Positions 542 to 8,902 of a DNA stretch of 32,000 bases are shown here, piece by piece. The notes under the pieces were generated by a model. It had not been told where the DNA came from. It made no database searches and saw nothing but the letters and a program-made list of their open reading frames with translations. Source of the DNA: Candidatus Helarchaeota ASGARD archaeon Hel_GB_B (GTDB lineage: Archaea > Asgardarchaeota > Lokiarchaeia > Helarchaeales > HEL-GB-B); contig SUPR01000027.1 of assembly GCA_005191425.1 (NCBI GenBank), forward strand, positions 5,791-37,790, read 5' to 3'. A program made the translations under genes and the position numbers. Positions within the stretch are counted from its first letter, which is position 1. The number at the start of each line of letters is the position of its first letter.

Positions 542-2272
542 ATGTTTAAAATTCGGTGGTATAAAATCGAACTAGATGGCATTCTTGAAGATCTAAGAAA
601 AGATGACCTCCAGAAAATAGAGGAGGCAACAAAAAAATTATTAGATTTAGATAAAGAAGATTTTGAAAATTATGGTTTTGATGATGCTATCAATAAGATC
701 TTTGAAATTATAGAATTATTTGAAGATATTGAATCAAAAAGACCGGAATTTTGGAAAAGGCTTAAAGATAAAAAAAAGATAGAGAAATGGGATAAAATAA
801 TAGAAAATATTCGAGATAAATTGCGCGACCTTGATTTAACTTCTTATGATTTAAATGATAAGGGAATTGAAGCTCAAGATAAAGATGATGATGACCGGGC
901 TTTAATTTATTATAAACAAGCAGTATTATTAGACCCAAATTATCGGTGGAGTTGGTACAACCTTGGTAATGTATATCGAAATAAAGATAATAATGAAAAA
1001 GCAATAGAATGTTATAAAAAAGCGGTGAAAATTTACCCTGACTATGGAGATGCTTGGAACAATATGGGTAATGCATATAGCGATTTAGATAAATTAAATG
1101 ATGCATTAGAAGTCTATGAAAAAGCTGCAAGTATTGAGTCATATGAAAATAGGAATTTTCCGATATATAATATAGGGCTTATTTATGAAAAAAAAGGCGA
1201 TAAACATAAAGCATTAGAGTATTTTAAAAAAGCATTGGAAGTTAAAGGAGACTATGCTAAAGCCCAGTATAATGCTGGTAGAATTTTATATGAGATGGGA
1301 AATATTTTAGAGGCCCAAAAATATTTTACTTTAGCATTAACGAATGATTTTGAAAATTATTATAAAGATATTGCTGAATTTAATATAAATGTATATAATT
1401 TACTTGCTAAACATTTAATTAACGATTTTATTGATTTCAAGAACTTAAATGTTGACATTATCCAAAAAGATGTCAAAGAGATAATTAAAAATATTTTTTC
1501 AAGGAATTATTTTGGCGAAAAAGAAATCAATTTTTTATTAAATGATCCAGAATATATTAAAAATTGGAAAAAAAGCTTTACCACAGGGAAAGCTGAAATT
1601 ATTGAAAATTTTATAAATAATTGTCTTGCTTCTATTTTTATTAGTAAGGATGAAGATCTTTTAAATGGTTGGATAAATGAAGATATTAGTAAAATGTTAA
1701 ATAATAATGAAATTGATTATGAGTTTTTAAGAATAGAACTGATCTTAAAATTCATTAATAATTTTCCTGGAGATGAATTATCTCAAAATATTAGAGATAA
1801 ATTAAATTCTGTAATTATTGAGAGTTATGATTATTTTAAAAAGACATTTAGACTTATCCGGAATTATATTTTATCTCATAATATTAATTCAGCTGAAGAA
1901 TATATTGATAAATTTTTAGATCAAATAGAAAATGAAGAGATAAAGACAAAATATAGGAAGGAATATGTAGCAACAACTATAAAAATTTCTGAATTTTTAA
2001 GAGATTACGCATTAATCAATAATAATTTACTCTTTATAAATTTAAATGAAAAAATAATTTTGTGGTTATTGGAGAATTTAGATAATAGAGATGCTTCAAT
2101 TGAAGTTGCATTTTTTTTATTAGAATCGGTCGACTTATTTTATAAGAATAAAAAATTTGAGACCAGTTTAAAATGCGCAATAAAAGCAAAAGAATTTTTT
2201 AACAAGTTGGAATTTATTAAGGATTCTCAAAAAGTCGAAAAAATTATTAAAAAAATTGAGATATTAAATTAA
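542..2272 (+). CDS. Tetratricopeptide repeat (TPR) protein with acidic helical N-terminus and long helical C-terminus
   Basis: 576-aa ORF with five consecutive ~34-aa TPRs at about aa 101-272 (e.g. SWYNLGNVYRNKDNNEKAIECYKKAVKIYPDY, AWNNMGNAYSDLDKLNDALEVYEKAASI, IYNIGLIYEKKGDKHKALEYFKKALEV). BRE/TATA-like GAAAAGTTATTTAAAT at ~493-508. Confidence 0.9.
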   Translation: MFKIRWYKIELDGILEDLRKDDLQKIEEATKKLLDLDKEDFENYGFDDAINKIFEIIELFEDIESKRPEFWKRLKDKKKIEKWDKIIENIRDKLRDLDLTSYDLNDKGIEAQDKDDDDRALIYYKQAVLLDPNYRWSWYNLGNVYRNKDNNEKAIECYKKAVKIYPDYGDAWNNMGNAYSDLDKLNDALEVYEKAASIESYENRNFPIYNIGLIYEKKGDKHKALEYFKKALEVKGDYAKAQYNAGRILYEMGNILEAQKYFTLALTNDFENYYKDIAEFNINVYNLLAKHLINDFIDFKNLNVDIIQKDVKEIIKNIFSRNYFGEKEINFLLNDPEYIKNWKKSFTTGKAEIIENFINNCLASIFISKDEDLLNGWINEDISKMLNNNEIDYEFLRIELILKFINNFPGDELSQNIRDKLNSVIIESYDYFKKTFRLIRNYILSHNINSAEEYIDKFLDQIENEEIKTKYRKEYVATTIKISEFLRDYALINNNLLFINLNEKIILWLLENLDNRDASIEVAFFLLESVDLFYKNKKFETSLKCAIKAKEFFNKLEFIKDSQKVEKIIKKIEILN

Positions 2273-2300
2273 TTCAGGAGCAATTGAGTTTGAACCAAAT

Positions 2301-4937
2301 ATGACTGATAAATGTAAGTATTTAGATGAAAAAGATATTTTGGGCGAAATCTTCTATTTATGTAACATCCAAAAAAAAGGTATTTCTACCGATTTTGTTT
2401 TGGAAACATGTTTATCTCCAAACTGGAAAGATTGCGAGTTTGTATTTAGTCCATCGAAATCGCATTTAAAAGGCAAATGGAAGGAAATAATTGGATTAGA
2501 GGATATCAAAAAAGAGCTCATCCAGAAGGTCCAACATCCCTTCATTTTATCTCAGATTAAAAATATGAAAATAGAACCAGTAAAAACGCTTATTCTTTTT
2601 GGTCCAGATGGGTGTGAAAAATTATCATTGGTCCATGCATTAGCTGAAGAGAGCCATGTTAATTTAGAGACTATTTCATTCAGACAAATTGAAGAATTGA
2701 ACACAAAAATTGATGAAATTGGAGAAAATGACCCGACTATTATTTTAATTGATGAGGTAGACCTAGTTGCACCACCAATAGAATCAAAACAAGTATATTT
2801 AGCAACATTTAGAATCCAAGATCCTATAATTATATTAATGTCTGCTATTCAGAAAATTAAATCTTCTAATAAACCTATATCCTTGATTATGATTACTGAT
2901 AATCCTGATTTAGTTTCTCCATTAATTTTAAAACAGGAATATATTTCTGATATAATTTACGTTCATCCTCCAACGGAAAAAGATAGGAAGGAAATTTTAA
3001 AAAATTTATTACAAAATAAACCGCTGGAGAAAAATATTGATTTTGATTTACTGGCCAAAAAAACATTTAATTTTTCGGTGCAGGACCTTAAAAAACTAGT
3101 TAGAATAACCGAATTAAAATGGGCTGAAGATTCTTATGAAAATGAGCGAAAAATTTCAATGGACGACATACTCAAGGCTCTAAAAGAAGTAATCCCCTCA
3201 TTGACAAAATCAATGATTAAAAAATTTGAGATAACTGCGATTCGTTATGGTGCAATGGAAAAAAGGTTTAGTAAAGAACGATTAACGTGGGATGATGTAG
3301 GAGGATATGATTCTATTAAAAAGCAATTAAAAAATATTATTTCAATGTTAACATCAAGTGATATGTATAAAAAATATGATGTTAATGCACCAACAGGTGT
3401 GCTTTTATTTGGACCTCCTGGGTGTGGTAAAACTTATATTGCCAGAGTAATGGCTGATATTGCTAATGCTAATTTCATATATGCAAGCGCTCCTGATTTA
3501 TTATCAAAATGGTTGGGTGAAAGTGAACAAAAAATTCACGATTTATTTACAACCGCAAAATTAAACCCACCTACAATTCTCTTTTTTGATGAATTAGACG
3601 GAATTGCATTTGAAAGATCAAGAACAACTGATCATCCGTATTTGACGACTATATTGTCTACATTTCTATCTGAATTCTCTGATCTCCGTCCTGAAGACCA
3701 TATTTTAGTAATTGGAGCTACTAATAGAATTGAAGATATAGATCCAGCATTTCTTAGACCTGGACGTCTTGATGAGCGAATTGCAGTTCCACCACCAGAT
3801 TTTAATGCAAGAAAAGAAATTTTTCAAATTTATTTAAGAAAAGTAGAATTGAGTGATGATGTTGATTTTGATTTTTTAGCAGAAAAAACTAAAAATTATA
3901 CTGGAGCTGAAATCGCTTATATTTGTGATACCACTAAACGCAATAAAGCTTTTAAGGCTATTGAAAATGGCAAATATACTAAAATAAAAATGAAAGATAT
4001 TTTAGAAGTTTTAGATTCAATTAAACCAGATCTATCATCTGAAGATATTGATGAATTTAATGAAATGATTGAAAAATTTGAACGCCGTGGTAAATTTTCC
4101 CCTGAAATACTTCATGAGCCTATATACTGGAATGAAATTGGAGGTTTAAAAGAAGTTAAAGATTTTTTACAAAATCACGTTATACGGCCATTAATTAATT
4201 ACAGAGATGCTCTGGAATTCGGTATTACACCAAAAAAAGGGATAATTATTTACGGTTTACCTGGAACTGGAAAAACATCAATAGCAAAAGCAATTACAAC
4301 CGAATCCAATGCAAATTTCTTTAGATTTTCAGCATTAGAATTATCTAATGTCTTTCTTTATAGAACTGATACACCAAAAAGTTTTAAAGATTTGATACGC
4401 GATGCCGAAAGAGTTGCACCTTCTATTATACTACTCGAAAATGTAGAAGCTATCGATTCATTTGAAATAGCCCTTTTTATTCAAAGTGAAATTGAAAAAA
4501 TAAAAAAGGAAATTCCAATTTTAATTATATGTGAAACCAATAATTTTGAAGGAATACCTGAAATTTTAAAAGCAAGCAACCAAATTCAATATGTTGTTAT
4601 TATAAATCCACCTACTTTTGAAGAACGAATCGAAATTTTAAAAATTAAAACAAAAAATCTTATTCTTAAGGACGATTTTGACTTCAAATTTATTGCAAAT
4701 AGAACTAATTATTATACTGGTTCGGACCTTGATAAATTGATAAAAGAAGCTGCTCATATTGCCTTTACAAGGAAATTAAATAACAGTTCAAAAGATTCTG
4801 TTAAAATAAACGAGGATGACTTTTTAAATGCAATGAAAATAGTCGAACCATCACTATCACAAAAGATAATCGATGAATTCAAAAATTCAATCGACAGAAT
4901 CCAAAAAAACAAAACTCGTATTGGTTATTATGGTTAA
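2301..4937 (+). CDS. Cdc48/VCP-family AAA+ ATPase with three tandem AAA modules and C-terminal HbYX motif
   Basis: Three modules begin WKEIIGL, WDDVGGY and WNEIGGL. Walker A: GPDGCEKL (degenerate), GPPGCGKT, GLPGTGKT. The middle module has pore loop KWLG, Walker B FFDELD and SRH ATNRIEDIDPAFLRPGRLD. The protein ends RIGYYG. SD-like AGGAG at 2276-2280. Confidence 0.92.
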   Translation: MTDKCKYLDEKDILGEIFYLCNIQKKGISTDFVLETCLSPNWKDCEFVFSPSKSHLKGKWKEIIGLEDIKKELIQKVQHPFILSQIKNMKIEPVKTLILFGPDGCEKLSLVHALAEESHVNLETISFRQIEELNTKIDEIGENDPTIILIDEVDLVAPPIESKQVYLATFRIQDPIIILMSAIQKIKSSNKPISLIMITDNPDLVSPLILKQEYISDIIYVHPPTEKDRKEILKNLLQNKPLEKNIDFDLLAKKTFNFSVQDLKKLVRITELKWAEDSYENERKISMDDILKALKEVIPSLTKSMIKKFEITAIRYGAMEKRFSKERLTWDDVGGYDSIKKQLKNIISMLTSSDMYKKYDVNAPTGVLLFGPPGCGKTYIARVMADIANANFIYASAPDLLSKWLGESEQKIHDLFTTAKLNPPTILFFDELDGIAFERSRTTDHPYLTTILSTFLSEFSDLRPEDHILVIGATNRIEDIDPAFLRPGRLDERIAVPPPDFNARKEIFQIYLRKVELSDDVDFDFLAEKTKNYTGAEIAYICDTTKRNKAFKAIENGKYTKIKMKDILEVLDSIKPDLSSEDIDEFNEMIEKFERRGKFSPEILHEPIYWNEIGGLKEVKDFLQNHVIRPLINYRDALEFGITPKKGIIIYGLPGTGKTSIAKAITTESNANFFRFSALELSNVFLYRTDTPKSFKDLIRDAERVAPSIILLENVEAIDSFEIALFIQSEIEKIKKEIPILIICETNNFEGIPEILKASNQIQYVVIINPPTFEERIEILKIKTKNLILKDDFDFKFIANRTNYYTGSDLDKLIKEAAHIAFTRKLNNSSKDSVKINEDDFLNAMKIVEPSLSQKIIDEFKNSIDRIQKNKTRIGYYG

Positions 4938-5050
4938 AAAAAATAGTAGTGCAATATACTTGATAATAAAATCTAAATATTTAAATCTAAAAAAATAATT
5001 AATATAATTTAATAAAACATAGTGTTTATTTTCCTTTATTAGGGATTAAA

Positions 5051-5671
5051 TTGGAAAACAATAATTTAAAAGGCGGAACTGAAAAAGAGGAAGAAAAAAA
5101 TGAGCTTGTCAACTTCTTAAAAGATACTCGCGAGATTATTTTAAATGGTGTGCGAGATGCCTTTATTGATAGAAAAACTGATAATATTCAAAAACTCTAC
5201 CAATTAGCAGCTAAAATCTCGGAAGAATTGGGTGATATCGAATCTAAGAAACGATTTGAAAACAGGTCAAAATTGTTTAATAGAAAAAATGCAAACGAAA
5301 TTTTAGAAGATATTGATTTAACCATTAAAAGCATCATTCAAATTATTAATTATGAATTTCAAGATAAAATTAAAAGGGTACTATACACTATAAATTTGCT
5401 AATAAATACTGCAAAAGAAATAGAAATCGCAGAAAAAACCTTTAGAAGGGCAAATGCCCAATTAAATTTCTCACTTATTCAATATATTCGAAAAATGCGG
5501 GCATTTAGAAATGAATTATTTAGGTTAATACCTAAGGAATTAATACAAACATCCTTCGAAGAATGGGAAAATGAACATAAAAAAATAAAACTAAACCTTG
5601 AAAAATTAAAGGTAAAATTAGATCTTCTTATTTTAAAGTATAAAAAAGATTATAATGAAGAATTAATTTAG
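5051..5671 (+). CDS. Hypothetical all-helical protein
   Basis: 206-aa ORF with TTG start and a charged amphipathic helical pattern. No family motif recognised. Confidence 0.75.
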   Translation: MENNNLKGGTEKEEEKNELVNFLKDTREIILNGVRDAFIDRKTDNIQKLYQLAAKISEELGDIESKKRFENRSKLFNRKNANEILEDIDLTIKSIIQIINYEFQDKIKRVLYTINLLINTAKEIEIAEKTFRRANAQLNFSLIQYIRKMRAFRNELFRLIPKELIQTSFEEWENEHKKIKLNLEKLKVKLDLLILKYKKDYNEELI

Positions 5672-5846: not shown

Positions 5847-6953
5847 GTGATTGGTTTACAAGTTTGTGCTTGGGATCTTGAAGGGCCATTATCAATGACT
5901 GATTTTGCTGCTGAAATTTTTAAATATCTAAAAATAAAGATTAAATCTAAAATTAAAGGTAATTTAGGTGATTTATTCTATTTAATCAGTAAGTATGACG
6001 ATTATCTAATAGACTATCCTCTAAATCAGCAAAAATTAAATATTGAACGATATAATCCTGGAGATACATTAAGATTATTAGCCCCATTTTATGTAAATTA
6101 TTTTTCTAACGCAGAATTATTTGAAATTGCTAAAAAAAAGTTAGGTATTATTCCAGGTGCAATTGAAACAATTTCATTATTACAAGACGAATGGGATATT
6201 TACGTAATCTCCACAAGTTATACTTATTTTGCATATCAAGTAACAGAAAAATTAGGAATCTCTAAAGACCATGTATATTGTACATTATTAGATGTAGATA
6301 ATTTAAAAGAGTTTAAAGATCAATTAGAAACAAAAATTAATCATCTTTTGTATAAAATATTTCCGAAATATATTGATAATAATAAGAACTTTGAGATTAT
6401 AGTTGATGATCTAAATGATTTTTTCTGGGGCGACCGAAACTCTGGATATTTTCAAATAATGGAAAAAGTAGTTGTGCGGGGTGGCAAACAAAAAGAACTG
6501 GCTATTGAGAGTATTTCTGAACGAACCGGCTGTCCAATTGAAGAAATAATTGTAACTGGCGATTCCATAACCGACATTAACATGTTAAATAGAGTAAAAA
6601 ATGAAAATGGTATTGCAATATCTTTTAACGGCAATAATTATTCTATACCGCATGCAAATATAGCAGTAACAACTCCTAATGTCATGGGTATTATGCCAAT
6701 TTTTTATAATTACAAAAAAATTTGGGATTTTATTAAAGACTGGAACGAAAATTTTGAAAAATTTAAGATGGACCCCTCTAAAATTCCAGATGATTTAATT
6801 CCGTCTTCTCTGAAAGCATATTTTATTAAAGAAAATTTTGTCCCACAAATTAATGATATTAGGTCAATCACTAATGAAAAATTAAATGAACTAATAAAAA
6901 TACAAAAAGAAATGCGAAAAAAAGTAAGAGGTTGGGTTGGTGGTCTAGGATGA
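5847..6953 (+). CDS. HAD-superfamily hydrolase, COG4030/EhaR-like
   Basis: Motif I variant WDLEGP, motif II ISTSY, motif III K (GGKQK) and motif IV GDSITD followed by GIAISFNGN. This matches the archaeal family often labelled energy-converting hydrogenase A subunit R. Confidence 0.8.
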   Translation: MIGLQVCAWDLEGPLSMTDFAAEIFKYLKIKIKSKIKGNLGDLFYLISKYDDYLIDYPLNQQKLNIERYNPGDTLRLLAPFYVNYFSNAELFEIAKKKLGIIPGAIETISLLQDEWDIYVISTSYTYFAYQVTEKLGISKDHVYCTLLDVDNLKEFKDQLETKINHLLYKIFPKYIDNNKNFEIIVDDLNDFFWGDRNSGYFQIMEKVVVRGGKQKELAIESISERTGCPIEEIIVTGDSITDINMLNRVKNENGIAISFNGNNYSIPHANIAVTTPNVMGIMPIFYNYKKIWDFIKDWNENFEKFKMDPSKIPDDLIPSSLKAYFIKENFVPQINDIRSITNEKLNELIKIQKEMRKKVRGWVGGLG

Positions 6954-7864
6954 AATTAGATATAATTTGCGAAGGTGCTGCATTAATTGATATGGTCGCA
7001 TTAGTCGACCGATTTCCAAACATAGATGATGAAGTTTTTGTACCAAAATTAGAATTCAAATGCGGGGGTTCTGCAGCAAATACTGCTGTTGCATGTTCCA
7101 AATTAAATTTAAAAACAGGTTTCATTGGAAAAATAGGTAAAGATCCATTTGGTTCTCTATTAATTGATGATTTTAATAGAAATTCTATTAATATAGAAAA
7201 CTTGGTAATTTCTGAAGTCTTGCCTACTGGAAATTGTTATGCTGCTGTCGATAAAAAAGGTAATCGTATCTTATATGCTTTTAGCGGTGCAGCAAATGAG
7301 TTAAATCCAAATGAATTAAAAGAAGATTATATTAAAAATTCAAGATTAATACATCTTGCAAGTCTTAAAAATATTCTTCCATTAATAAAATCTGCTGAAA
7401 TCGCGCAGAAAAATGATGTATTAATTTCGCTCAACCCTGGTGCATTGATAGCAGACCAACCTTTTGAAAATATTAAGCCTTTAATATCAAAAATTGATAT
7501 TTTTATCAGCTCAGAAAGTGAATTGAAAAAAATTTTTGATGATAATTTGGAAAATTCTTTGAAGAAGTTAAAAAAATTTGTGAAAATTTGTGCTATTACT
7601 CAAGGTTCCCGTGGATCTTTGATCAACGATTATGAAAATAATGAGCAATTTGTAATTCCGTCGTACAAAGTAGATGTAAAGGATACTACGGGCGCTGGAG
7701 ACGCTTATTCTGCAGGGTTTCTCTCAGGTTTGCTACATAATAAAGATTTATTTACATGTGGAAAAATGGGAAACGCAGCTGCAGCTTTATGTATCCAAAA
7801 AATTGGTGCTCGATTTGGAATACCCAGTTATAATGAATTAATGACTTTTATTGAAGAAAATTAG
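6950..7864 (+). CDS. PfkB/ribokinase-family carbohydrate or nucleoside kinase
   Basis: Signatures GGSAANTAVACSKL, IGKIGKDPFG and DTTGAGDAYSAGF. Start reassigned from the track's 6932 to the ATG at 6950, which overlaps the upstream TGA (ATGA coupling). Confidence 0.93.
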   Translation: MKLDIICEGAALIDMVALVDRFPNIDDEVFVPKLEFKCGGSAANTAVACSKLNLKTGFIGKIGKDPFGSLLIDDFNRNSINIENLVISEVLPTGNCYAAVDKKGNRILYAFSGAANELNPNELKEDYIKNSRLIHLASLKNILPLIKSAEIAQKNDVLISLNPGALIADQPFENIKPLISKIDIFISSESELKKIFDDNLENSLKKLKKFVKICAITQGSRGSLINDYENNEQFVIPSYKVDVKDTTGAGDAYSAGFLSGLLHNKDLFTCGKMGNAAAALCIQKIGARFGIPSYNELMTFIEEN

Positions 7865-7873
7865 GAGTTAAAA

Positions 7874-8902
7874 TTGTATCATCTTAATTTTTGTATTACT
7901 GATAAATGTAATCAAAATTGTATTCATTGCTTTGTGAACCCAAATCAATGTAATTTTAATGGATTAGAAGAAAATTTTATAATTGGATTATGTGAAAAAG
8001 CTTTCAGATTTGGCCTAAAATCAGTCCACATTTTTGGTGGAGAACCATTTTTAAGACCTGATTTAAAAAATATTTGCGAAAAATTAAATGAATTAAAAAT
8101 AAATATAAGTATTGCTACAAATGGTCATTTTCTTAATCCTGAACAAGTTGAATGGATCGAAAAATTCAATATTTTTCTTACTATTTCACTTCATGGGACT
8201 GAAAAAATCCATGATGAAATTGCGAATATGCAGGGCTCTTTTAAGACTACTTTAAACAACATCAAATATCTTTTAAATAAAAAAATTAAATTTGCTATTA
8301 CAACCTGCGTTAATAAATTAAACATGGAAAGTTATCCTAGTTTACTACAAGAATTAACTAAAATAGGAATAAAAAATTTTATAATACTTTATTTTTCTCC
8401 AATAGGCCGAGGAATGGAATTAATTGATTATATAATTTCTAATGAAGAATGGGAGCAATTTATTTTTGATGTCCAGCGTTTTAAATGGAAACTAGACCCG
8501 GAAATTGAGATTTCATTTGAGCCGAGCATTTTTAATCGTAAATATATTAATTTATTTACTTATAGACAACAATGGGCATCATGCCAAATAAATTATAAAA
8601 ATAATTTTGTAATTGATGCAAATGGCGATGTCTATCCTTGCATTTTATTACTACGGGATAAGAGGTACCTATTAGGTAATGTTTTAAAATCAGATATAAT
8701 TGAAATATATAATAAAGACCTTACCTTATCTATTAACTCTGCTTATGATATTCCAAATACTTGTTTAAATTGCAATTTATTTGATTTATGCAAAAGCGGG
8801 TGTATTGCTTATAAAGGAAAAGGTAATATTGATTTTAGATGTAATCCACAGAATAAAAATTATGCACTTTTATGTCCACTTTTTACTAAAATCCTATATT
8901 AA
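7874..8902 (+). CDS. Radical SAM protein with SPASM domain
   Basis: CxxxCxxC motif (CNQNCIHC), GGEPFLR, and SPASM cysteines (SCQ...GDVYPC...CLNCNLFDLCKSGC...C...CP). TTG start with AGGAG at 7863-7867. Confidence 0.93.
   Translation: MYHLNFCITDKCNQNCIHCFVNPNQCNFNGLEENFIIGLCEKAFRFGLKSVHIFGGEPFLRPDLKNICEKLNELKINISIATNGHFLNPEQVEWIEKFNIFLTISLHGTEKIHDEIANMQGSFKTTLNNIKYLLNKKIKFAITTCVNKLNMESYPSLLQELTKIGIKNFIILYFSPIGRGMELIDYIISNEEWEQFIFDVQRFKWKLDPEIEISFEPSIFNRKYINLFTYRQQWASCQINYKNNFVIDANGDVYPCILLLRDKRYLLGNVLKSDIIEIYNKDLTLSINSAYDIPNTCLNCNLFDLCKSGCIAYKGKGNIDFRCNPQNKNYALLCPLFTKILY

What the first reader, a model, noticed from the sequence alone, without database searches (positions are those of the whole stretch)
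2301..4937. Cdc48-like ATPase with three AAA modules, only the middle one catalytically complete
Seen: three modules. Each opens with a Cdc48 D2-type W-x-x-(I/V)-x-G motif (WKEIIGL, WDDVGGY, WNEIGGL) and closes with a D2-type helix (PSLTKSMIKKF, PDLSSEDIDEF, PSLSQKIIDEF). Module 1 has a broken Walker A (GPDGCEKL, 2601-2624) and no Arg fingers. Module 2 (Walker A at 3411) has an intact Walker A, KWLG pore loop, DE Walker B and RPGR fingers. Module 3 (Walker A at 4254) keeps GLPGTGKT but has Walker B LLENVE, no aromatic pore loop and no Arg fingers. Established: Cdc48/p97/VAT, NSF and Pex1/6 have two modules. Inference: a D2 triplication could give a three-tier hexamer with one motor ring between two scaffold rings. 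I do not recognise this as a characterised architecture.
Basis: partly seen in the sequence, partly recalled or inferred. Interest (0 to 1): 0.82.

Follow-up and report, generated by a model that had tools for sequence, protein, structure and literature searches.

The report
Three-ring AAA unfoldase of Asgard archaea
This is a real, conserved gene of a rare Asgard-archaeal family of protein-unfolding motors with three ATPase modules in a row instead of the usual one or two; only the middle module looks able to burn ATP, the protein ends in the short tag that other motors use to dock on the proteasome, and it travels with its own helical-repeat partner protein.

Summary
Window 2301-4937 (+) is one 878-aa ORF with three classical AAA modules, each passing Pfam's AAA cut-off alone, and every cited motif sits at the stated coordinates. 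It is no chimera: about 16 full-length homologs (47-79% identity) exist in Asgard MAGs, and contigs from independent metagenomes bridge both module junctions without a difference.

M2 is fully canonical. M1 lacks pore loop 1 and Arg fingers family-wide; its Walker A is broken only in the window's subclade. M3 keeps Walker A but lost the catalytic Glu, sensor-1 Asn and Arg fingers. All three modules are under purifying selection.

New here: a sister clade has four modules (the active one duplicated); an N-terminal domain with four invariant Cys; a hydrophobic-Tyr-small C-terminus in 20 of 21 members; and a conserved partner, TPR plus a helical-repeat domain "X", fused in this subclade and split in others.

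'D2 triplication' is neither shown nor rejected. The family occurs in 8 of 400 Asgard genomes. Other uncharacterised proteins with three or more AAA modules exist, for example in Altiarchaeum, without this pattern. No paper describing it was found.

Most likely it is a stacked hexameric unfoldase with one motor ring, adaptor-loaded, probably feeding the 20S proteasome. This scan had noted the family only in this genome.

The parts
2301..4937 (+). Complete ORF of the triple-AAA ATPase (878 aa, P0001)
   Evidence: Its start matches the N-termini of orthologs. Full-length homologs. Independent contigs.
2301..2465 (+). N-terminal Cys4 mini-domain (aa 1-55). C5, C21, C37, C45, F18 and P51 are invariant (G58 and W60 just downstream are invariant too).
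   Evidence: Alignment A1 of 19 members, including 4-module relatives. No Pfam family above cut-off. AF2 pLDDT 35-52. No named structural relative.
2466..3266 (+). Module M1 (aa 56-322), a degenerate AAA. Walker A is GPDGCEKL (2601-2624). Walker B DE is kept (2745-2762). Pore loop 1 is deleted, the Arg fingers are replaced (…LKQEY…), and sensor 1 reads TDNP.
   Evidence: PF00004 45.2 bits. Motif table. dN/dS about 0.07-0.15.
3276..4100 (+). Module M2 (aa 326-600), a canonical motor module. Walker A is at 3411-3434, the KWLG pore loop at 3507-3518, Walker B FFDELD at 3582-3599, sensor 1 reads ATNR, and the RPGR Arg fingers are at 3756-3767.
   Evidence: PF00004 125.5 bits. The Walker A, sensor-1 and Arg-finger residues are invariant in the family alignment, and pore loop 1 and the Walker B Glu are nearly so. 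It aligns with D2 of VAT, p97 and Cdc48 in the PDB.
4116..4919 (+). Module M3 (aa 606-873), probably ATP-binding but hydrolysis-deficient. Walker A GLPGTGKT (4254-4277) is intact. The Walker B position reads LLENVE (4431-4448), so the catalytic Glu is lost. The sensor-1 Asn and the Arg fingers are lost.
   Evidence: PF00004 63.0 bits and AAA_lid_3 37 bits. Motif table. G652, G655 and K658 are invariant.
4926..4934 (+). C-terminal Tyr-Tyr-Gly, a hydrophobic-Tyr-X (HbYX-type) tail
   Evidence: Right-aligned termini of 21 members: Tyr at -2 in 20; L/Y/F at -3 in 19; S/G/A at -1 in 21; upstream positions vary. Motif definition from PMC3493965.
542..2272 (+). Upstream partner gene (576 aa), 28 nt before the ATPase. 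TPR repeats occupy about aa 80-320 (nt 779-1501). The helical-repeat domain 'X' occupies aa 315-576 (nt 1484-2269).
   Evidence: Pfam TPR. Orthologs sit directly upstream in L036, L041 and C69. In subclade B the TPR and X parts are separate genes flanking the ATPase, and X also lies upstream of the 4-module gene. X model: all-alpha, pLDDT 74.8. Complex prediction: weak support.
5051..5671 (+). Downstream 206-aa helical protein, conserved next to the ATPase in subclade A only
   Evidence: 52% identity to the L041 downstream gene and 51% to the C69 downstream gene. No Pfam family.

Best explanation
The gene encodes a member of a small Asgard-specific family of classical-clade AAA+ unfoldases built from three tandem AAA modules (four in a sister clade).

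The most likely assembly is a homohexamer of three stacked rings.
- The M2 ring is the only motor. It has a complete ATP site, trans-acting Arg fingers and a KWLG pore loop that grips and threads the substrate.
- The M1 ring has no pore loop 1 and no Arg fingers, and in this protein a ruined P-loop. It would be a passive entry and adaptor platform carrying the Cys4 N-domain.
- The M3 ring has an invariant P-loop, but its catalytic Glu, sensor 1 and Arg fingers are gone. It would be a constitutively nucleotide-bound assembly ring, as in NSF-D2.
- The conserved Hb-Tyr-X tails of M3 would dock the stack on the 20S proteasome.

Substrates would be delivered by the co-encoded TPR plus helical-repeat protein (TPR-X).

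Shown here: the architecture, the motif states, conservation, purifying selection, the partner linkage and the conserved tail.

Inferred: ring stacking, nucleotide states, 20S docking and the adaptor role.
For: Architecture and reality.

Motif pattern. Walker A, Walker B, sensor 1 and Arg fingers co-occur in M2 only, family-wide. M3 has an invariant GxxGxGK[TS] with Walker B EN/QN/DD. M1 lacks the pore loop. Arg fingers act in trans on the neighbouring subunit's site (established AAA+ mechanism). A complete M2 site therefore needs an M2 neighbour, which means homomeric stacked rings.

In the 4-module relatives the extra module is a duplicate of the active one (sister clades, support 93; both score about 370-385 bits against the M2 profile). 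That fits stacking another ring.

The degenerate modules are maintained. dN of M1 and M3 is only about 1.2-1.6 times that of M2, and dN/dS is about 0.04-0.24.

HbYX. Tyr is at -2 in 20 of 21 members, L/Y/F at -3 in 19 and S/G/A at -1 in 21, while the preceding tail varies. This meets the published definition, and tail deletion abolishes 20S activation by archaeal CDC48 (PMC3493965). The genome has five proteasome-family (PF00227) genes, and its PAN-like protein ends in FYS.

Partner. TPR-X lies directly upstream in four subclade-A loci. The split TPR and X genes lie beside the ATPase in three subclade-B loci, with a GTPase gene between X and the ATPase in one. X also lies upstream of the 4-module gene. 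This is a Rosetta-stone fusion.

Complex prediction of N-domain+M1 with TPR-X gave weak support. The score was 0.36 and the best of 3 controls 0.00. That mark was reached by 58 of 80 solved complexes and 2 of 110 mismatched pairs, but at 0.60 or under by only 7 of those 80 solved complexes and by both mismatches that passed. The runs agree in at least 72% of their contacts, and the partner's pLDDT is at least 72.
Against: No hexamer or stack was modelled. The AF2 monomer has pTM 0.41. Its adjacent modules superpose on p97 protomers only at about 10 A rmsd, so the geometry is uninformative.

If M3 sits between the motor ring and the 20S, substrate must cross a ring without a canonical pore loop. 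No solved proteasomal ATPase works that way.

Hb-Tyr-X ends are not specific. About 4% of archaeal proteins match the pattern (PMC3493965). The C-terminal tail of p97 serves adaptor binding (from memory). TPR domains commonly bind C-terminal peptides, so the tail might bind the TPR partner instead.

The genome already has a PAN-like ATPase and two Cdc48s with a penultimate Tyr.

The complex score is in the weak band. The family is rare (8 of 400 genomes), so its role is accessory.
Confidence: 0.5

Rival explanations
1. It is a proteasome-independent segregase or disassembly machine, as p97, NSF or Pex1/Pex6 are. The three-tier hexamer remodels a specific complex delivered by TPR-X. The conserved Hb-Tyr-X tail is an adaptor-binding peptide, for example for the TPR domain of the partner, and not a 20S key.
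For: The dedicated partner genes are conserved and fused, as for NSF with SNAP or Pex1/6 with its anchor. TPR domains typically bind C-terminal peptides, and the C-terminal tail of p97 binds adaptor domains (general knowledge, not tested here). The genome already holds a PAN-like ATPase and two Cdc48s with a penultimate Tyr. M3 lacks a canonical pore loop for handing substrate on to a protease. In one relative a Rag/Arf-like GTPase gene sits inside the cassette.
Against: In archaea every tested AAA protein with this tail activated the 20S (PMC3493965). The tail is the only conserved element in an otherwise variable C-terminal extension, as in PAN and Cdc48. No specific adaptor family such as SNAP was recognised in the TPR partner.
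Confidence: 0.35
2. It forms a planar pseudo-hexamer. Two chains lay their three modules side by side into a single six-module ring, as dynein, midasin or RNF213 do within one chain, instead of stacking three rings.
For: 2 x 3 = 6. Single-chain rings of degenerate and active AAA modules are known in dynein and midasin (general knowledge). The AF2 monomer does not reproduce a p97-like stacking of adjacent modules.
Against: In an M1-M2-M3 ring, the ATP site of M2 would be completed by a neighbour that has no Arg fingers. The Arg fingers of M2 would point at a site that cannot bind (M1) or cannot hydrolyse (M3). The 4-module sister clade does not tile a hexamer. The inter-module linkers and closing helices are of the Cdc48 D1-D2 type. 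All closest solved relatives are stacked double rings.
Confidence: 0.08
3. It is an artefact or decaying gene: an assembly chimera of Cdc48 fragments, or a tandem duplicate on its way to pseudogenisation.
For: The genome is a MAG with 4.9% estimated contamination. Two of the three modules are catalytically degenerate.
Against: About 16 full-length homologs in several Asgard lineages share the same module order. Contigs from independent studies cover the gene with 0 differences and bridge both junctions. Purifying selection acts on every module. Family-specific invariant motifs occur in M1 and M3.
Confidence: 0.01

Closest known systems
Archaeal Cdc48/VAT (and eukaryotic p97/Cdc48), type II classical AAA unfoldases; PDB 5g4f, 5vc7, 6chs
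   Same: Best sequence and fold matches: M2 aligns with D2 (E about 1e-105) and Foldseek E is about 1e-39. It shares tandem classical AAA modules joined by short linkers, a W-x-x-[IV]-G-G module start, and an Hb-Tyr-X C-terminus as in many archaeal Cdc48s that activate the 20S (PMC3493965).
   Different: It has three modules instead of two. There is no CDC48_N double-psi barrel; a 55-aa Cys4 domain stands in its place. It scores 461.9 bits against the TIGR01243 cut-off of 802.65. None of its modules nests in the D1 or D2 clade. Only one ring is catalytic, and it has dedicated TPR-X partner genes.
NSF (active D1, ATP-binding non-hydrolysing D2) and Pex1/Pex6 (degenerate D1, active D2)
   Same: One motor ring is combined with degenerate rings. 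M3 has an intact P-loop without catalytic Glu or Arg fingers, like NSF-D2 in logic. M1 is like the inactive D1 of Pex1/Pex6. It also works with a helical-repeat adaptor, as NSF does with SNAP. The comparison rests on general knowledge of these proteins.
   Different: It is not a member of these families. It lacks their N-domains. The motor ring is flanked on both sides. The partner is a generic TPR protein with only a sub-threshold, 60-residue SNAP cross-hit.
PAN/Rpt and the archaeal network of HbYX-bearing proteasomal ATPases (PAN, CDC48, AMA)
   Same: It has the conserved C-terminal Hb-Tyr-X. The genome's PAN-like protein ends in FYS and many family members end in FYS or LYS. The 20S genes are present.
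   Different: There is no coiled-coil/OB N-domain. It has three AAA modules. The ring that would touch the 20S is non-catalytic and lacks a canonical pore loop. Binding was not tested.
Other database proteins with three or more classical AAA modules, e.g. Candidatus Altiarchaeum 'CDC48 family AAA ATPase' (1,019 aa, NCN65136.1)
   Same: Three tandem classical AAA modules in one archaeal polypeptide. One lineage (P0123) even has TPR repeats fused to three AAA modules.
   Different: In those proteins Walker A/B and the Arg-finger motif are intact in nearly all modules. Their N-domains are CDC48_N, FtsH_ext, TPR repeats or hydrophobic, membrane-like N-termini. None has the Cys4 domain or the Hb-Tyr-X end, and they are only about 31-37% identical over M2. 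None appears to be characterised.

Membership tests
Classical AAA ATPase (Pfam PF00004) | Each module matches the AAA profile above the curated cut-off (21.2 bits) | tested here: met
   M1 45.2, M2 125.5 and M3 63.0 bits when scored alone
Classical AAA ATPase (Pfam PF00004) | Walker A, Walker B, sensor 1 and second-region-of-homology Arg fingers | tested here: met
   Complete in M2 only. M1 and M3 are degenerate in a conserved way.
CDC48/VAT subfamily (NCBIfam TIGR01243) | Whole-protein score at or above the curated cut-off of 802.65 bits | tested here: not met
   461.9 bits
CDC48/VAT subfamily (NCBIfam TIGR01243) | N-terminal CDC48_N / CDC48_2 (double-psi barrel plus beta-clam) domain | tested here: not met
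   No PF02359 or PF02933 hit. The N-terminus is a 55-aa Cys4 domain. The genome's three ordinary Cdc48-type proteins begin like canonical Cdc48 N-domains.
CDC48/VAT subfamily (NCBIfam TIGR01243) | Exactly two AAA modules that are orthologous to D1 and D2 | tested here: not met
   There are three modules. D1 and D2 form their own clades (support 92 and 93) without any of M1-M3. AU tests leave the deeper links open.
HbYX-dependent proteasomal ATPases (PAN / archaeal CDC48 / AMA network) | C-terminus with a small or hydrophobic residue at -3 and Tyr or Phe at -2 | tested here: met
   The protein ends in YYG. Tyr is at -2 in 20 of 21 members. Definition from PMC3493965.
HbYX-dependent proteasomal ATPases (PAN / archaeal CDC48 / AMA network) | A cognate 20S core particle in the same genome | tested here: met
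   Five PF00227 genes, 181-221 bits
HbYX-dependent proteasomal ATPases (PAN / archaeal CDC48 / AMA network) | Physical binding to the alpha ring and gate opening that depends on the tail | not testable with these tools
   The alpha ring plus the ATPase exceeds the size limit of the complex predictor. This needs biochemistry.
NSF/SNAP-type system | The partner belongs to the SNAP family (PF14938) | tested here: not met
   Only a 20.6-bit hit, below the 25-bit cut-off, covering about 60 residues of the window's TPR part. The three subclade-B TPR partners show none.

The most novel reading that the evidence does not exclude
This is the first 'type III' (and, in the sister clade, 'type IV') classical AAA+ machine. 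It would be a three- or four-tier hexameric proteasome cap in which one motor ring (two in the sister clade) is sandwiched between an adaptor-docking ring and a nucleotide-locked 20S-docking ring. A dedicated TPR/helical-repeat adaptor and a metal-binding Cys4 domain would load it. That would be a new solution to coupling substrate selection, unfolding and protease docking, invented within Asgard archaea.
Probability: 0.33. Interest if true: 0.8.

Novelty: new variant of a known kind. Interest (0 to 1): 0.62.

Why it matters
Classical AAA+ unfoldases are taught as one-ring (PAN/Rpt, Vps4, FtsH) or two-ring (Cdc48/p97, NSF, Pex1/6) machines. Here is a conserved, selected three-ring version, with a natural four-ring variant in which the motor ring is duplicated. 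It has a clean division of labour that can be read from the sequence.

That offers a natural experiment on what non-catalytic AAA rings are for: assembly, adaptor docking or protease docking. It also bears on how many tiers a threading machine can tolerate.

If the conserved HbYX tail is functional, Asgard archaea have an additional adaptor-loaded proteasome cap. That is relevant to how regulated proteolysis diversified near the origin of eukaryotes.

The family is small, soluble and without introns, so it is directly testable by expression and cryo-EM. Its rarity (8 of 400 Asgard genomes) argues for a specialised role and not a core one.

Tried and rejected
- **Weak Pfam hit of the N-domain** to D27-like_C (20.6 bits against a cut-off of 27). 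It is below threshold and was not pursued further. The ESM Atlas feature search gave no usable hit, and the structural neighbours are unnamed small Bacillota proteins. I treat the N-domain as a Cys4 domain of unknown fold.
- **AF2 monomer**. The N-domain did not fold (pLDDT 35-52) and pTM was 0.41. Foldseek matches p97 protomers across two modules, but at about 10 A rmsd. It says nothing on stacking.
- **SNAP identity of the TPR partner:** rejected.
- **Domain X.** The profile search against PDB sequences gave only chance-level hits. Foldseek against PDB and AFDB gave weak TPR-like solenoid matches only (E >= 2.5e-3, TM about 0.3). X is a generic alpha-helical repeat with no family assigned.
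- **Origin of the modules.** Three constrained topologies were tested by AU and none was rejected. A fourth test (M3 with D2) did not finish in time.
- **Expression:** no RNA holder listed.
- **Read laying 'joints'** with 20-24-nt sides in two deep metagenome runs. I dismissed them as low-complexity cross-matches from other organisms, as the tool warns.
- **Literature.** Four full-text searches for three-module or three-ring classical AAA proteins found nothing relevant (reading of PMC5070193 and PMC11188069). The library lacks most subscription journals, so absence is not proof.
- **dN/dS.** dS is saturated (>1), so the ratios are rough.
Full report
**1. The observation**

Window 2301-4937 (+) is a single 878-aa open reading frame.

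A Pfam scan finds three stretches of the AAA family PF00004 and two AAA_lid_3 stretches. Cut out and scored alone, each module passes the curated cut-off of 21.2 bits: M1 (aa 55-325) 45.2, M2 (326-600) 125.5 and M3 (601-878) 63.0 bits. The modules are 27-30% identical to each other (E 6e-23 to 1.5e-33).

Two corrections apply. M1 keeps a Walker B Asp-Glu (LIDEVD). The M3 loop that aligns with pore loop 1 contains aromatic residues and only lacks the canonical form.

**2. It is a real gene family, not a chimera**

A word-indexed search of 5.8 billion proteins returned about 16 full-length relatives of 873-890 aa, at 47-79% identity and 99-100% coverage. Wherever a source names an organism, they come from Asgard MAGs labelled Helarchaeota, Lokiarchaeota or Promethearchaeota.

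An exhaustive phmmer search over 1.8 billion cluster representatives found only two clusters that match end to end. The score then drops from 889 to 544 bits.

Contigs from metagenome runs of other studies (hydrothermal vent and marine sediment) cover the locus without a single difference. They bridge the junction with the upstream gene, the M1/M2 junction and the M2/M3 junction. Examples are a 1,678-nt contig over 1961-3638 and an 808-nt contig over 3624-4431.

**3. Anatomy across the family**

I cut modules with a profile built from M2 and aligned them.

M2 is canonical in nearly every member:
- GPPGCGKT
- a Ser-Lys-Trp-Leu-Gly pore loop 1
- Phe-Phe-Asp-Glu-Leu-Asp
- Ala-Thr-Asn-Arg
- Arg-Pro-Gly-Arg

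M1 lacks pore loop 1 entirely and has Lys/Tyr where the Arg fingers should be, in all members including the long relatives. Its sensor 1 reads Thr-Asp-Asn-Pro. Most members keep Walker B Asp-Glu; several close relatives read Asn-Glu. Its Walker A is intact (GPDGCGKS) in the more distant three-module members. It is broken (GPDGC-E/Q/L/M-K-x) only in the window's subclade and two other lineages.

M3 has an invariant Gly-x-x-Gly-x-Gly-Lys-Thr/Ser. At the Walker B position it reads Glu-Asn, Gln-Asn, Glu-Asp, Glu-Arg or Asp-Asp instead of Asp-Glu. It has lost the sensor-1 Asn and both Arg fingers.

The degenerate modules are not decaying. They contain many family-invariant positions. Between close orthologs their dN is only about 1.2-1.6 times that of M2, with dN/dS of roughly 0.04-0.24, although dS is saturated.

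**4.

(a) A sister clade of 1,168-1,178 aa has four AAA modules. In the module tree its first module groups with M1 (support 100), and its last with M3 (99). Its two middle modules are sisters (93) within the M2 clade (99). The extra module is therefore a duplicate of the active one.

(b) The first 55 residues form a domain with four invariant cysteines (C-x15-C-x15/16-C-x6-8-C) plus invariant Phe and Pro. The 4-module clade shares it. It matches no Pfam family above cut-off, and AlphaFold2 does not fold it confidently.

(c) The C-terminus. In 21 members Tyr is penultimate in 20, the residue before it is Leu, Tyr or Phe in 19, and the last residue is always Ser, Gly or Ala. Positions -4 to -15 differ between subclades. 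This meets the published definition of the HbYX proteasome-docking motif. Deleting such a tail abolishes 20S activation by archaeal CDC48 (PMC3493965). Another first-stage note on this window made the same suggestion from the single sequence; the conservation test is new here.

**5. A conserved partner**

In the window a 576-aa TPR protein ends 28 nt upstream on the same strand. The same arrangement is found next to three close relatives: L036, L041 and contig C69 of the same genome.

In a more distant subclade (L037, L040, L043) the ATPase is instead followed by a convergent TPR gene of about 280 aa and preceded by an unannotated gene of about 240-260 aa.

BLASTP shows that the long upstream protein is the sum of the two. 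Residues of about 80-320 match the short TPR proteins at 41-44% identity (E 1e-49 to 1e-57). Residues of about 315-575 match the unannotated 'X' proteins (E down to 9e-9). They also match a 249-aa gene upstream of the 4-module ATPase.

This is a Rosetta-stone fusion combined with conserved neighbourhood, which is good evidence for a functional unit. One relative on a 10-kb contig has neither neighbour.

X folds as an all-alpha repeat (pLDDT 74.8, pTM 0.68). It has only weak TPR-like structural neighbours. The TPR part is generic and is not a SNAP.

A complex prediction of N-domain+M1 with TPR-X (Zn riding along) returned 'weak support'. The score was 0.36 and the best of three controls 0.00. 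That mark was reached by 58 of 80 solved complexes and 2 of 110 mismatched pairs, but at 0.60 or under by only 7 of the 80 and by both passing mismatches. The runs agree in at least 72% of contacts and the partner's pLDDT is at least 72. Given the prior from synteny and fusion, this adds a little.

**6. Origin of the modules**

In a maximum-likelihood tree of 71 modules, archaeal Cdc48 D1 and D2 form their own clades (support 92 and 93). None of M1, M2 or M3 nests inside them. M2 sits weakly (87) with the genome's Vps4-like protein. M1 and M3 are long branches.

AU tests do not reject any of these groupings:
- all family modules as one clade (p 0.61, with a likelihood slightly better than the free search);
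- M2 with D2 (p 0.49);
- M1 with D1 (p 0.47).

The 'D2 triplication' is therefore possible but not shown, and a D1/D2-based origin is not excluded.

**7. Distribution and genome background**

A search with the N-domain+M1 fragment was run over 400 Asgard species genomes. Family-level matches (over 190 bits, beginning at residues 1-4, or at residue 42 in one cut match) occur in eight:
- the window's genome (two copies) and its congener;
- one other genome of the same order;
- one genome of another family;
- four of five genomes of the family that carries the 4-module form.

Every other genome gives only Cdc48 cross-hits of 114 bits or less.

The window's genome (3.5 Mb, 94% complete, 4.9% contamination) also encodes:
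- three ordinary Cdc48s, two of them with a penultimate Tyr;
- a PAN-like ATPase ending in Phe-Tyr-Ser;
- a Vps4-like protein;
- a Cdc48-N plus single-AAA protein;
- five proteasome-family (PF00227) genes.

The second copy (P0007, 70% identity) lies on a 6.2-kb contig with the whole cassette. It may be a true paralog or a co-binned relative.

**8. Mechanism**

The co-occurrence of a complete ATP site and Arg fingers in M2 alone is the key argument. Arg fingers act on the neighbouring subunit's nucleotide. M2 can therefore only be active next to another M2, that is, in a homomeric ring stacked between an M1 ring and an M3 ring.

A planar ring of M1-M2-M3-M1-M2-M3 would leave M2 without a finger and would point its fingers at dead sites. 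The 4-module form, with two complete modules, fits one more stacked ring and does not tile a hexamer.

By analogy, and not by membership, M3 resembles NSF-D2: nucleotide-bound, non-hydrolysing, for assembly. M1 resembles the inactive D1 of Pex1/Pex6.

The conserved HbYX tail on M3 and the presence of a 20S make docking on the proteasome the most economical reading. The main alternative is that the tail serves adaptor binding in a proteasome-independent remodeller.

I put the composite model (stacked single-motor unfoldase, adaptor-loaded, probably a proteasome cap) at 0.5. The proteasome-independent version is at 0.35, the planar ring at 0.08 and an artefact at 0.01.

**9. Novelty**

All solved relatives have at most two AAA modules. 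Four full-text searches found no description of a three-module or three-ring classical AAA protein. The Cdc48-family survey in PMC5070193 mentions none.

The architecture as such is not unique in sequence databases:
- a Candidatus Altiarchaeum 'CDC48 family' protein has CDC48_N plus three catalytically intact modules;
- another lineage fuses TPR repeats to three modules with intact Walker A/B;
- an FtsH-like protein has three modules;
- proteins with four to six modules exist.

None of the twelve other multi-AAA proteins examined shares the Cys4 domain, the dead-active-degenerate pattern or the HbYX tail.

I therefore class the finding as a new variant of a known kind, and not as categorically new. 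Within this scan the family had been noted only in this same genome.

Noticed in passing
Own genome contig C69 (6,174 bp): triple-AAA frame at 1230-3893 (-), TPR-X at 3902-5617 (-), 191-aa helical gene at 544-1119 (-), divergent TPR gene from 5668 (+): A second complete cassette in the same MAG. The ATPase (P0007) is 70% identical to the window's and the TPR-X about 49% identical. GC is 23.6% against 26.1% for the window's contig. It could be a true paralog or a co-binned relative (the MAG has 4.9% contamination).
   Followed up: partly
P0008-P0011 and P0013 (1,168-1,178 aa); locus L038 6001-9507: A sister clade with four AAA modules: a degenerate M1, two canonical motor modules that are duplicates of each other, and an M3-type last module. 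It has the same Cys4 N-domain and ends in Leu/Phe-Tyr-Ser. It occurs in 4 of 5 genomes of one Asgard family.
   Followed up: partly
P0122/P0270 (1,019 aa; NCN65136.1, Candidatus Altiarchaeum hamiconexum): An unrelated archaeal 'CDC48 family' protein with CDC48_N plus three AAA modules that all keep Walker A/B, pore-loop aromatics and Arg fingers. It looks like an all-active three-module Cdc48.
   Followed up: partly
P0123 (1,303 aa): TPR repeats (about residues 250-380) fused to three classical AAA modules with intact Walker A/B. This is an independent link between TPR domains and multi-AAA motors.
   Followed up: no
P0124, P0127 (about 2,100 aa, 6 AAA stretches); P0125 (1,398 aa, 5); P0129 (1,367 aa, 4); P0132 (1,631 aa, 5); P0133 (1,195 aa, FtsH_ext + 3): Metagenomic proteins with four to six tandem classical AAA modules, several with hydrophobic N-termini. 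Six modules in one chain might form a single-chain ring. Their owners are unknown.
   Followed up: no
L037 5053-5982 (+): In one relative a Gtr1/RagA- and Arf-like small GTPase gene (81 bits to PF04670) sits between the X gene and the triple-AAA gene, 18 nt upstream of the ATPase.
   Followed up: no
L036 9084-12806 (+): Downstream of the closest relative's ATPase lies a 1,240-aa protein with about 12 TPR units and a C-terminal CHAT (caspase-like) protease domain. This is not conserved in the other loci.
   Followed up: no
window 5847-8902 and L041 7470-10901: A HAD hydrolase, PfkB kinase and radical-SAM gene trio follows the cassette in both the window and a 74%-identity relative. This is local synteny within the subclade.
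   Followed up: no
Own genome contig C150, 54033-54422 (+) region (448-aa protein): A protein whose N-terminus resembles the Cdc48 N-domain, followed by a single divergent AAA module (a long branch in the module tree). It ends without an HbYX motif.
   Followed up: no
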